From the NCBI GenBank assembly GCA_964016885.1, contig OZ024758.1, positions 7,812,001 through 7,876,000 on the forward strand: 64,000 nt of DNA. The letters run 5' to 3'. Positions 30,183-50,771 of this stretch are shown in pieces. Positions within the stretch are counted from its first letter, which is position 1, and the number at the start of each line of letters is the position of its first letter. The translations under genes were made by a program, and so were the position numbers. The stretch is from Eledone cirrhosa (taxonomy: Eukaryota). The notes below the pieces were generated by a model, which was given only the letters and a program-made list of their open reading frames with translations, was not told the origin of the DNA and did not search any database.

Positions 30183-30457
30183 ATATATATAAGCTGAAGC
30201 ATATAGGCAATATGCCCCCATCCCCTCCCACTGCAAAGTGGTCGTAGAGGTGTCATGACAAAAAAGCACCCAGACCACACTGTAAATGAGGTTGGTGTTA
30301 GGAAGTGCATCCAGCTGTAGAAATCAAGCCAAAATCAGTTCCCGTATGAGCAAGACAAGGTCAGCTGACCTAACATTGCCCACAACAGGACAACCCGTCT
30401 AACCCATGCTGGCGTGGAAGAATCAACATAAAACGGTGATGATGATGATGATATATT

Positions 30458-30488
<31 letters not shown>

Positions 30489-30559
30489 CAAAATTAGTTT
30501 ATAACAGAAGCACTCTACAGAATTCTTCTGGAGTATAATATCAAAAGTATTAATAAATG

Positions 30560-30751
30560 GAAACTATCTTTATAAAATCATATTTATTTTATTATATATA
30601 TTTCAAGGGTACCAATTCAAACAGAACTTAAAACGATAAGTTCTTGTTTTGGATATGACACTATCTGTAAAACAACTTTTATATTTTATCTGATGAGAGC
30701 GTAGTAGACAAACGAACTGGACAGATCGGTGACCACCAGGCATATGTGCAT

Positions 30752-30755
<4 letters not shown>
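30560..30755 (-). mobile_element. P5 sister copy with a micro-inverted hammerhead 5' half
   Basis: Minus strand GAAA-tatata-TA-ataaaata (30604-30585); plus strand tattttat-CTGATGA-gagcgta (30682-30703); 54-bp match to 31021-31074. Confidence 0.65.
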
Positions 30756-30782
<27 letters not shown>

Positions 30783-31020
30783 AAATGGGGAGAAGAATAC
30801 TGCAGGTTGCACATGGATAACATGTTATAAAATGAGTCCCTCATCAGTGATTTGCCAACGATCATAGATATTTCATTGCATTAAAAATCATATACCTCAC
30901 GTTGGTGCAATAATAACTAAATTAAGTTATTAGGACAATTAAAACGCGTAAAGCGAGTGAGACAAGTAAACAACAAAGAGGAAAGCTAACCGTAGATAGG
31001 AAGGGCACAAGCTACATATA

Positions 31021-31220
31021 TATAATGCACATATGCCTGGTGGTCACCGATCTGTCCAGTTTGTTTGTCTACTAGCATATCAGGAAAAAAAATTATAGAT
31101 TTTCTATATATTTTGTCTGAGGAGGACATGTTTTGCTTTATGTTAAACATAAAACTTTACATCTTTGAAATATATATAATAAAATAAATAGAGATTATAT
31201 AAAGTATATATCTTTTGTTA
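31021..31220 (+). mobile_element. P5 family copy (putative Penelope-like terminal repeat)
   Basis: Homologous to 46225-46500 and 50495-50760; starts in a TA run. Confidence 0.65.
31109..31186 (+). ncRNA. Putative type I hammerhead ribozyme (P5 family)
   Basis: tattttgt-CTGAGGA(31117-23)-ggacatgt..tttatgtt-a-aacataaa..acatcttt-GAAA(31167-70)-tatata-TA|ataaaata. 8-bp stem I, long stem II, palindromic minimal stem III, predicted cut after 31178. Confidence 0.7.
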
Positions 31221-31340
31221 TTACTATTATTATTATATATATATATATATGCTGGCCTTGTGCCAATAGTAGAAACAATTATTATATATATATATATATA
31301 TATGTACACACACACACATATACATACATATATATATATA

Positions 31341-37734: not shown

Positions 37735-38369
37735 CATGGGTTCCCAGTCTTTTATGAGTCATCGTACACTTTCACATGGAAAAGATTTCCACCACCCGCC
37801 TGTATACTAAATATTCAAAAGTATACCAAAAATGTTTGGTAAAAGTTTCTTACTGATTTCTTATTACCATTATTACCATTTAGCCTCCTGTTTTTTTTTT
37901 GTTTTTTTGGGGGGGGTGGGGTTATATATATATATATATATGAAAGTGGCAGAAAGAATGTTAGCGCAACTAATTAGAGAAAGGGTCAAATTAGATGAGA
38001 TGCAGTTTGGTTTTGTGCCTAGGAAAAGTACAACAGATGCCCTCTTCTCAGTGAGACAACTACAAGAGAGGTTCTTAGAGAAGAATAAGCCACTATACTT
38101 AGCTTTGGATGACCTAGAGAAGGCCTTTTATAGGGTACCCCGCAGGGAAAAGCGGATGTAAAATGATGATGATATATATATATATAAACCAATTCTTTAC
38201 ATATCACCTTTGAATATGTTTTTCGGGTAGCATATGTTGAAACAACTTTTGAATACTCAAATCCTATATCATCCACTAAAGTTTCCAATCGCTTACCATT
38301 TTCTTTTCAGTTGCTCAACAGTTAAAATCACTCACCAGTGGGCAATATCGCCCAGGTTGGGAATCTCTG
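37735..38369. mobile_element. hAT (Charlie-like) MITE with nested RTE fragment
   Basis: Degenerate TIRs catgggttccca / tgggaatctctg; candidate 8-bp TSD gtgtagtc / gtgtagag. Confidence 0.5.
37940..38172 (+). pseudogene. RTE LINE reverse-transcriptase fragment fused to the LINE 3' tail
   Basis: MKVAERML...DEMQFGFVPRKSTTDALFSVRQLQE...LYLALDDLEKAFYRVPR (RT motifs QxGF, STxDA, DLEKAF), then gcagggaaaagcggatgtaaa(atg)n. Confidence 0.9.
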
Positions 38370-46224: not shown

Positions 46225-46500
46225 AATAATTTATGAAACATTTAAACCAACTGTAATGTGTCCCTGTCCCCCCCCCAATTACGTAACACCCTTACGTTCT
46301 GAGGTTTTTCTAGTCATATGCCTGGTGGTCATCGATCTGTCCAGTTCGGTTGTCTACCAACATATGAAAAAATTATACATTTTCTATATATTTTGTCTGA
46401 GGAGAACATATTTTGCTTGATGTTTTACATAAAACTTTGCATCTTTGAAATATATATAATAAAATAAATAGAGATGATATAAAATGTATATCTTTTGTTT
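46225..46500 (+). mobile_element. P5 family copy
   Basis: Homologous to 31021-31220 and 50495-50760. Confidence 0.65.
46389..46466 (+). ncRNA. Putative type I hammerhead ribozyme (P5 family)
   Basis: tattttgt-CTGAGGA(46397-403)-weakened long stem II-GAAA(46447-50)-tatata-TA|ataaaata. Confidence 0.6.
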
Positions 46501-46670
46501 ATTACTAATATTATTATCTCTCCCCCTCCGAGGTTAACTTTGCCTTTCATCCTTACGGGGTCGATAAAATGAAGTACCAGTAATGTACTGGGTAATTGCT
46601 GGCCTTGTGCCTAAAGTAGAAACAATTATTATCTCTCCCCCTCTCTCTCTCTCTCTATATATATATATAT

Positions 46671-46883
46671 TATAATTGAATATAAAAGAAAAACGAACAC
46701 AGACATATACATATATGTGTTCAAATCGTAAGGGACCAGATAATTTGAACACATATATATATATGTCTGTGTTTGTTTTTCTTTTATATTCAATTATACT
46801 ATACGGCTCGGAAATATCTCTTTCTTAGAGCTATTTTGTTGTAAGAGACTATTTTGAGTTCCTAACTCAATATATACCTTTGA
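46671..46883 (+). mobile_element. (TA)n-embedded fold-back element P4
   Basis: 56-bp arms 46671-46726 / 46743-46798 (54/56 match), 16-nt spacer, unique tail, TA flanks. Confidence 0.55.
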
Positions 46884-50165: not shown

Positions 50166-50358
50166 ATAGGAACAAGTATGACCCCGACGGCAGAGCTCAA
50201 GCCGTTTCGGCGGCTATTTCTGGACTGAAATAGCCGTCGAAACGGCTTGAGCTCTGCCGTCGGGGTCATACTTGTTCCTATTACCCACTCTACTACACTA
50301 AGTATTGAGTACTTTGGTGCGTTATGGTCCATCTGGTTCCTTACCACAATTCCTTTGT
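50166..50358 (+). mobile_element. P1 fold-back element with hammerhead 3' half
   Basis: 55-bp arms 50166-50220 / 50227-50281 (54/55 match), loop tggact; GAAA at 50239-42; (TA)n flanks. Confidence 0.75.
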
Positions 50359-50494
50359 TATATATATATATATTTATATATAATAATAATAGTTTTTACT
50401 TTTATCACAAGGCCAGCAATTACCCAGTGCATTACTGGTACTTTATTTTATCGACCCCGTAAGGATGAAAGGCAAAATGATAATAATAGTAATA

Positions 50495-50760
50495 AACGAA
50501 AAATATATACTTTATATCATCTATATTTATTTTATATATATTTCGAAGATGTAAAGTTTTATGTATAACATAAAGCAAGACATGTCCTCTTCAGACAAAA
50601 TACATACGAGATGTATAATTTTTTCATGATATGCTAGTAGACAAACGAACTGGACAGATGGGTGACCACCAAGCATATGACTAGAAAAAACTCAACACAT
50701 AGAGAGTTACATGACTAGGAGAAAACATTACAGTTGGTTTAAACGTTTCATCAATTATTT
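50495..50760 (-). mobile_element. P5 family copy with hammerhead core (stem III shortened)
   Basis: Minus strand tattttgt-CTGAAGA-ggacatgt...acatcttc-GAAA-tatat-ataaaata (50602-50528). Confidence 0.65.
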
Positions 50761-50771
50761 ATATATATATC

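What the first reader, a model, noticed from the sequence alone, without database searches (positions are those of the whole stretch)
30585..30703. Hammerhead split between strands by a ~50-bp micro-inversion, revealing covariation and a conserved C-C mismatch
Seen: the minus strand carries taccctt-GAAA-tatata-TA-ataaaata (30611-30585). The matching 5' half, tattttat-CTGATGA-gagcgta, lies on the plus strand (30682-30703). Re-inverting about 30655-30703 restores a complete type I hammerhead, collinear with the P5 copy at 31109-31186. It has a perfect 8-bp stem I, a stem II gagCgta/tacCctt and an apical hairpin agaactta/taagttct. Stem II differs in sequence from the other P5 copies (ggaCatgt/acatCttc) yet keeps the pairing and a C-C mismatch at position 4. 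Inference: structure is under selection across subfamilies, and this copy was inactivated by an inversion ending in stem II.
Basis: partly seen in the sequence, partly recalled or inferred. Interest (0 to 1): 0.75.

Follow-up and report, generated by a model that had tools for sequence, protein, structure and literature searches.

The report
Flipped dead copy of hammerhead repeat
This is a broken copy of an abundant animal repeat carrying a hammerhead (predicted self-cutting) RNA motif, with a piece of about 88 bases flipped, likely during insertion; most intact relatives keep an unusual C-C mismatch in one stem, which may be part of how the RNA folds.

Summary
The split is real. The halves of a type I hammerhead lie on opposite strands at the stated coordinates, and sequencing data hold many sisters with these halves joined (main joint 30615/30703: 525 reads, 88 starts in one run; 31, 2 and 1 contigs in three others).

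Sisters join the stem II arms over about 8 letters, so the 'apical hairpin' is not loop II. The flipped piece is about 88 bp (30616-30703), about 8 nt are lost, and 30702-30763 is an inverted duplicate (60/62) of the neighbouring copy's 5' end. This fits a twin-priming-like inversion at insertion best (about 50%).

Covariation holds qualitatively. C faces C at stem II position 4 in 7 of 10 distinct stems (4 of 4 window copies, 3 of 6 read-derived). In those 7, 41 of 42 flanking positions pair. No formal covariation test was possible.

Repeat-borne type I hammerheads with covarying stems and inverted copies are known from Penelope-like elements. The conserved C-C was not found in my literature searches, and Rfam misses the family. 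Verdict: a dead copy of a new variant of a known kind; cleavage untested.

The parts
30452..30487 (.). (TA)n/(CA)n microsatellite, left flank of the composite insertion
   Evidence: sequence
30488..30592 (-). 3' tail of the split (B-type) copy; 30592-30585 is the 3' strand of stem I; outer end uncertain
   Evidence: read depth continues to 30490
30593..30604 (-). 3' half of the catalytic core: GAAA, palindromic 6-nt stem/loop III, AUA triplet; predicted cut between 30593 and 30592
   Evidence: same 12 nt as two intact sisters; self-duplex -5.2 kcal/mol
30605..30615 (-). 3' arm of stem II (C11.4 at 30608); 30615/30616 is the internal inversion junction, about 8 nt lost
   Evidence: sister joint 30615/30703
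30616..30651 (+). upstream part of the flipped piece, holding a hairpin (30619-30649); not loop II
   Evidence: fold z -3.5; reads align across 30646; placement not resolved from the window alone
30652..30689 (+). middle of the flipped piece; 30682-30689 is the 5' strand of stem I; extension pairs further with the tail
30690..30696 (+). 5' half of the catalytic core (CUGAUGA)
30697..30703 (+). first 7 nt of the 5' arm of stem II (C10.4 at 30700); the last 2 nt (TA) are shared with the next piece as microhomology
30702..30763 (-). 62-nt inverted duplicate of the 5' end of the neighbouring copy (31013-31074), including its junction with (TA)n
   Evidence: 60 of 62 identical; the two other sisters have a different upstream sequence
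30752..30778 (.). (TA)13, likely fold-back point
   Evidence: role inferred
30779..31018 (.). spacer: fragment of another high-copy repeat, cut off at 31018
   Evidence: high depth and loose ends at 31018; no other copy in the window; no Pfam family
31030..31236 (+). intact A-type sister; hammerhead at 31109-31186
46225..46517 (+). intact A-type sister; core starts at 46397
50477..50765 (-). A-type sister with a 3-nt loss between the core and stem I that breaks the cleavage register
   Evidence: (missed by the descriptor)

Best explanation
The locus is a dead copy of a high-copy repeat that carries a type I hammerhead motif, and it was likely split while being reverse-transcribed into a (TA)n/(CA)n tract by a twin-priming-like event. 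SHOWN: 3' half on the minus strand, 5' half on the plus strand, sisters with the halves joined over about 8 letters, a 62-nt inverted duplicate of the neighbour's 5' end beside the flip, and 2 nt of shared TA at that junction. INFERRED: one break end primed cDNA from the RNA's 3' end as far as loop II. The other end folded back on (TA)n, copied 62 nt of the neighbouring copy, then primed inside the RNA at stem II and copied about 88 nt upstream. The two cDNAs were joined with about 8 nt lost. The enzyme would be that of an unidentified Penelope-like element. In intact sisters the motif would cut after AUA, likely as a dimer through the palindromic stem III. The C-C at stem II position 4 is likely a kept structural feature, possibly facing the purine-A mismatch at stem I position 9.
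For: Reciprocal breakpoints about 8 nt apart in sister coordinates (X6 record 17). Two inverted fragments with an internal deletion define twin priming, with microhomology at the target junction and little or none at the internal one (PMC2837659, passages); the tool gives 0 shared letters at the sister joint. Inverted duplications at the reciprocal break end, one primed by TA/AT homology, accompany L1 insertions (10.1101/2024.12.14.628481, section 9). A Penelope-like protein cuts and extends both strands and starts inside the RNA (PMC11167929). Inverted 5'-truncated copies and (TA)n targets are typical of these elements (PMC8557442). Both flanks are microsatellites. Pair tables: and tables 3, 5c, 7.
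Against: No reverse transcriptase or GIY-YIG frame lies beside any copy, and no partner was found among published octopus Penelope-like consensus sequences. Twin priming is described for L1; my search gave no Penelope-specific paper (1 review, not read). The microhomology is only 2 nt, no target-site duplication can be read in microsatellites, and the L1 inverted duplications had small hairpins whereas this loop is about 250 nt. No listed piece spans the window's junctions. Sisters fold no better than shuffles (z -0.6 to -1.8). Three of 6 read-derived stems lack C-C. This copy has G-U, not the canonical G-C, at 10.1-11.1.
Confidence: 0.5

Rival explanations
1. An intact B copy was inserted first and later rearranged at DNA level, by replication template switching or end-joining repair at the stem II hairpin: three switches giving the 62-nt inverted duplicate, the 88-nt flip and the 8-nt loss.
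For: Hairpins and (TA)n favour fold-back (established knowledge). The same pieces result. The duplicate keeps the majority letter at 31062 where the neighbour has changed, which fits an old event of either kind.
Against: It needs three switches, one with no visible microhomology. One switch would have to land near where sister alignments begin (30615-30624; three single-contig joints, weak).
Confidence: 0.28
2. Penelope-type head-to-head insertion: an inverted 5'-truncated copy (cut at loop II) abutted a complete forward copy, and the forward copy later lost its 3' half when the inverted duplicate replaced it. The two halves would then come from two cDNAs and two events.
For: This arrangement is typical of Penelope-like elements (PMC8557442). 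X1 record 1 runs 30574-30703 on one strand with 11 other letters and 18 gap letters, and three single contigs join rc(tail) to 30615-30624, suggesting other head-to-head copies.
Against: The two independent breaks would have to fall about 8 nt apart by chance. The supporting joints are single contigs with short sides, which the tool warns are often false.
Confidence: 0.13
3. One reading: a simple about 50-bp micro-inversion in an intact copy collinear with the 31.1-kb copy, with the hairpin as the tip of a long stem II.
For: Re-inverting about 30649-30697 gives the best global score among tested breakpoints. The piece at 30652 resembles the sisters' middle in register.
Against: That score lies within shuffles. 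No joint near 30650/30703 is among the 15 shown, while 30615/30703 dominates. Reads cross 30646. Depth falls from about 780 to about 4 (X10) beyond 30714. The 5' piece is 98% like the neighbour while the middle is 56-65%.
Confidence: 0.05
4. Assembly artefact (chimeric or fold-back read).
For: No listed piece spans the junctions. The best runs hold 0.49-0.59 of the sampled words.
Against: The inverted arms differ at 2 of 62 letters and enclose a 249-nt spacer, unlike a fold-back of one molecule. The tool notes that a hole in contigs proves nothing.
Confidence: 0.04

Closest known systems
Hammerheads of metazoan Penelope-like elements, especially variants with a small palindromic helix III (Cervera and de la Pena 2014, PMC4209133; Results, Discussion and alignment in supplement file 2 part 2 read)
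   Same: Type I topology, long helix II, palindromic helix III suggesting dimers, dispersed single copies, many consensus families with compensatory changes, and motif pairs 100-700 bp apart on opposite strands.
   Different: No extra nucleotide between A9 and 10.1; stem I is 8 bp plus an extension, not 4-5 bp; G-U or A-U often replaces G10.1-C11.1; C-C at helix II position 4 was not seen by eye in the representatives listed in the part I read; no ORF linked.
Canonical type I hammerheads of animal non-LTR retrozymes (PMC7229834, passages; 10.64898/2026.07.22.740005, parts 1-2 of 5)
   Same: Short non-coding AT-rich repeat, long helix I, weak palindromic helix III as in amphibian motifs; dispersed monomers are known.
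   Different: No tandem array of this unit in the window. Helix II is far longer than 4 bp, so the canonical loop 1-loop 2 contact cannot form in the usual place. The supplement of PMC7229834 (mussel motifs) could not be read.
Twin priming and break-end remodelling of L1 insertions (PMC2837659, passages; 10.1101/2024.12.14.628481, passages and section 9)
   Same: Two inverted fragments, a small internal deletion, short microhomology at the target junction, and an inverted duplication of flanking DNA.
   Different: Not an L1; no poly(A) tail or readable target-site duplication; larger fold-back loop.
Published octopus Penelope-like families Naiad_Ovul, Naiad_Obim, Hydra-1_Obim (PMC8557442 supplement: rows, part 24 of 59)
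   Same: (TA)n insertion preference; Hydra-1_Obim has a hammerhead.
   Different: Family motifs were not found in the supplement (line breaks could hide a match). By eye, the Naiad 3' ends and the Hydra-1_Obim ribozyme do not resemble this family.

Membership tests
Type I hammerhead ribozyme | Core CUGANGA, GAAA and UH | tested here: met
   All present in the split copy (two strands) and in the sisters at 31117 and 46397; descriptor finds 0 hits in 200 shuffled windows
Type I hammerhead ribozyme | Stems I and II | tested here: met
   Stem I 8 of 8; stem II 6 of 7 with C-C; sisters extend stem II to about 11 bp
Type I hammerhead ribozyme | Both halves on one strand, in order | tested here: not met
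   Not in this copy; met in window sisters and in read sisters
Type I hammerhead ribozyme | G10.1-C11.1 pair | tested here: not met
   G-U in this copy; G-C in the 50-kb copy and in most A-type reads (31166 T>C, 509 of 521 X10 reads); A-U in about half of B-type reads (30697 G>A, 659 of 1338)
Type I hammerhead ribozyme | Match to an Rfam hammerhead model | tested here: not met
   0 hits at gathering score in the window; no hammerhead family among matches up to E 10 at 30500-31300 or 50450-50750
Type I hammerhead ribozyme | Self-cleavage | not testable with these tools
   needs an assay
Penelope-like element hammerhead (min-HHR and variants) | Long helix II and palindromic 15.2-16.2/loop III | tested here: met
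   definition from PMC4209133
Penelope-like element hammerhead (min-HHR and variants) | Extra nucleotide between 9 and 10.1, and short (4-5 bp) helix I | tested here: not met
   No extra nucleotide; helix I 8 bp or more
Penelope-like element hammerhead (min-HHR and variants) | Lies in the pLTR of an RT/GIY-YIG ORF | tested here: inconclusive
   No such ORF beside the 4 copies; 133 of 192 stop-free frames of 62 aa or more scanned, one weak RT fragment 6.5 kb away. No genome was held for a wider search.
Penelope-like element hammerhead (min-HHR and variants) | Insertion in (TA)n; inverted truncated copies | tested here: met
   Flanks; inverted layout; neither feature is exclusive to this family
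Animal non-LTR retrozyme | Head-to-tail tandem units each with a hammerhead | tested here: not met
   No tandem array over any of the 4 copies; arrays elsewhere in the genome not examined
Animal non-LTR retrozyme | Circular RNA monomers | not testable with these tools
   needs RNA data
Twin-primed insertion | Two inverted fragments with a small internal deletion | tested here: met
   about 8 nt missing between 30703 and 30615
Twin-primed insertion | Microhomology at the internally primed junction | tested here: inconclusive
   2 nt (TA), near chance level
Twin-primed insertion | Target-site duplication or empty-site allele | tested here: inconclusive
   Both flanks are microsatellites; no allele data at this site

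The most novel reading that the evidence does not exclude
This repeat family carries an undescribed hammerhead subclass, missed by Rfam, in which a fixed C-C internal loop in a long stem II docks onto a purine-A mismatch in a long stem I, replacing the canonical loop-loop contact. The split copy would also be a direct footprint of twin priming plus fold-back by a Penelope-type reverse transcriptase.
Probability: 0.25. Interest if true: 0.65.

Novelty: new variant of a known kind. Interest (0 to 1): 0.4.

Why it matters
The flipped copy itself is dead and a one-off. Its value is as a pointer. First, it marks a very abundant hammerhead family that current Rfam models miss, with several subfamilies that supply natural compensatory changes. 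If the C-C mismatch proves to be needed for cleavage, it adds a new way of stabilising the hammerhead fold and a new search descriptor. Second, a genome-wide count of such reciprocal inversions would test whether the inverted copies long seen in Penelope-like insertions arise by twin priming, a step not yet shown for these elements in the papers I read.

Tried and rejected
No genome is held for this window, so no genome-wide alignment, covariance model or R-scape-type test could be run.

Pattern scans for relatives. Family pattern: 1 metagenome hit (L001; stems do not pair), 0 viral, 0 prokaryote. 5'-piece pattern: 0 and 0. General C-C pattern: 7 prokaryote and 1 viral hits, none forming both stems, treated as chance.

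A global-alignment scan for breakpoints did not discriminate. Window-only placement of 30616-30651 was inconclusive: 768, 874, 1940 and 1984 of 2000 shuffles reached the scores. MFE folds of in-silico re-inversions formed stem II only in the sister-type model and never the complete core.

A CUGAUGA motif in the spacer (30847, minus) has no stem II, and the reads' common letters at 30866/30868 do not favour a core (by eye); rejected. The spacer has no Pfam match in six frames. The link to octopus Naiad 'half-core' motifs was suggested by the 35-50 nt spacing but rejected on sequence.

A functional split or trans ribozyme from the two strands was rejected, because the two transcripts would be fully complementary (reasoning). 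Non-circular permutations (PMC10085705, abstract only) concern one strand and do not apply.

Literature on C-C: 'c-c mismatch' had 0 occurrences in the 20 of 22 papers listed; 'conserved mismatch' had 0 in 15 of 16. Lunse et al. 2017 on Penelope hammerhead dimers was not held (recalled only) and may bear on novelty, as may the unread supplements of PMC7229834 and file 1 of PMC4209133.

Full report
SETTING. The window is AT-rich (30-38% GC), microsatellite-rich animal DNA. Its repeats look octopus-like to me; that label is recalled and was not tested. No genome is held. Rfam gives no hit at gathering score, and no hammerhead family appears even up to E 10 around two copies.

THE FAMILY IN THE WINDOW. 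Self-BLAST and a profile built from three copies show four members: 31030-31236 (+), 46225-46517 (+), 50477-50765 (-), and the split copy at about 30534-30763 (E 1.1e-22). A type I descriptor finds the first two and nothing in 200 shuffled windows. The 50-kb copy has lost 3 nt next to the cleavage site and is out of register. Intact copies have an 8-bp stem I, an A-A mismatch at position 9 and a further paired extension. They also have stem II with C opposite C at position 4, and a palindromic AU-only stem/loop III ending in AUA. Their folds are no more stable than shuffles (z -0.72, -0.64, -1.81), so the evidence for structure is the core and the pair changes, not the energy.

THE OBSERVATION. 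Both halves are at the stated coordinates, with stem I 8 of 8 and stem II 6 of 7. The middle piece matches the sisters only on the + strand (score 76, 0 of 5000 shuffles; other strand 43, 1231 of 5000). A whole-copy global test was uninformative. Segment identities exposed a problem. The 5' 45 nt are 44/45 identical to the neighbour at 31030, but the middle is 56-65%, the supposed loop II 36-40% and the tail 58-69% identical to the sisters. The 5' piece belongs to a 62-nt inverted repeat (30702-30763 and 31013-31074, 60/62) that includes the neighbour's own junction with (TA)n. The other two sisters have a different upstream sequence.

READS. Four runs from three studies were laid on 30490-31235 at 80% likeness: X1 and X10 share one species label but differ in sample and study; X4 and X6 are two other organisms. 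X1 may be close to the assembly's source. Ten of the 15 joints shown (32 in all) join 30607-30615 to 30697-30703 across strands. The main one, 30615/30703, stands in 31 X1 contigs, 525 X10 reads from 88 starts, 2 X4 contigs and 1 X6 contig; X6 record 17 has 8 letters between. So uninverted sisters are common, and their stem II is about 11 bp with a short loop. Insertions are called behind 30646 in reads that must extend on both sides, so 30616-30651 travels with the middle piece. The flip is therefore about 88 bp with about 8 nt lost, and the hairpin at 30619-30649 sits upstream of the ribozyme. X10 depth drops from about 780 to about 4 beyond 30714, so B-type sisters do not continue into the duplicated 5' piece. 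The spacer 30779-31018 is a fragment of another high-copy repeat. No listed piece spans the whole stretch.

COVARIATION AND C-C. I read stems by eye, assuming that aligned parts equal the window letters. Table 5c shows 12 of 18 rows; 7 give a whole stem II, falling into 5 distinct stems, and the 5 other rows were set aside because they lack an arm. The commonest loose end (4642 X10 reads; also 2 X4 contigs; cut at 30 letters, so its 5' core is not seen) gives a sixth. Three of these six keep C-C, with first four positions GGAC/CUCC (38 reads), AGGC/CCCU and GAGC/CUUU (3 reads). Three do not: U-C in one contig with a changed core, C-U in one poorly paired contig, and C-G in 3 reads. With the four window copies that is 7 of 10 stems. 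In those 7, 41 of 42 positions flanking the mismatch (1-3, 5-7) pair, and each of the six positions shows a two-sided change between at least two stems. Single-letter tables agree: 30697 G>A turns G-U into A-U, 31166 T>C gives G-C, and 30590 T>C and 31181 A>G give U-G in stem I. 30681 A>G keeps a purine-A mismatch at stem I position 9. No row at 30700, 30608, 31127 or 31163 is among the 40 best-supported of 210 rows. These stems are related, few and selected by alignment to the window, so this is qualitative support, not a significance test.

HOW IT LIKELY AROSE. In element orientation the locus reads: flank, inverted upstream-to-stem-II piece, then 3' half and tail, with a small deletion at the inner junction and 2 nt (TA) shared at the outer one. 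That is the layout of twin priming (PMC2837659, passages). L1 insertions can also carry inverted duplications made by self-annealing of the other break end, in one case through TA/AT (10.1101/2024.12.14.628481, section 9), which would explain the 62-nt duplicate beside (TA)13. A Penelope-like protein cuts and extends both strands and initiates inside its RNA without homology (PMC11167929, parts 1-2 of 4). Such elements favour (TA)n and often show inverted truncated copies (PMC8557442, passages and section 11). The enzyme is not identified: no RT or GIY-YIG frame adjoins any copy, and published octopus Penelope-like consensus sequences do not match.

HOW THE INTACT MOTIF LIKELY WORKS. By established hammerhead chemistry it would cut after AUA. 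The weak palindromic stem III (self-duplex -5.2 kcal/mol) suggests dimer action, as proposed for metazoan type I motifs (PMC4209133; PMC7229834, passages; PMC3088659, passages). Canonical helix II is 4 bp with a loop that contacts helix I. Here position 4 is the C-C mismatch inside a longer helix, and stem I has a purine-A mismatch at position 9; a contact between the two is my inference and is untested.

WHAT IS KNOWN AND WHAT IS NOT. Type I hammerheads in Penelope-like and retrozyme repeats, their covarying subfamilies, long helix II and opposite-strand pairs 100-700 bp apart are all described (PMC4209133). Hammerhead_1 matches are reported in the giant squid genome (PMC6962438, one passage). 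This family works like those, but fails two min-HHR features (extra nucleotide, short helix I) and the retrozyme tandem test in this window, so I file it as a variant, not a member. I found no mention of a conserved C-C in helix II (alignment), but one key paper and two supplement files could not be read. PMC6155905 was seen in passages. Earlier AI notes on other genomes treat Penelope-type hammerheads with covarying stems as ordinary; none concerns this family.

VERDICT. Real split, wrong size and reconstruction; a dead copy. The family and its C-C are the part worth following. Interest 0.4.

Noticed in passing
window 31250-31285, 46524-46632, 50383-50476: All three A-type copies are followed, in the same orientation and just behind their AT-rich tail, by a differently truncated piece of a SINE-like repeat with over 20 copies in the window. 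This suggests a target preference or a shared history.
   Followed up: partly
window 30779-31018: Fragment of a separate, very abundant repeat present in all four runs, with a CUGAUGA motif on the minus strand at 30847 but no hammerhead and no Pfam match.
   Followed up: partly
window 30540-30614 (reads): A further, apparently more abundant subfamily shares the 3' core but has its own stem II of about 12 bp with C-C at position 4 and A-A at position 8 (loose ends at 30605: 4642 X10 reads, 2 X4 contigs).
   Followed up: partly
window 30574-30703 (X1 record 1): One contig aligns through the head-to-head junction on one strand with 11 other letters and 18 gap letters; it may be a second inverted copy with another breakpoint.
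   Followed up: no
window 37811-38158 +: Weak reverse transcriptase fragment (RVT_1, E 2.8e-5, below cut-off), not next to any hammerhead copy.
   Followed up: no
window 46660-46790 and 50190-50290: Long near-perfect palindromes a short way behind two of the sister copies (seen by eye).
   Followed up: no
L001 256-319: Metagenome contig with a hammerhead-like core spacing and the same AU palindrome, but stems that pair poorly; probably chance or a decayed distant motif.
   Followed up: partly
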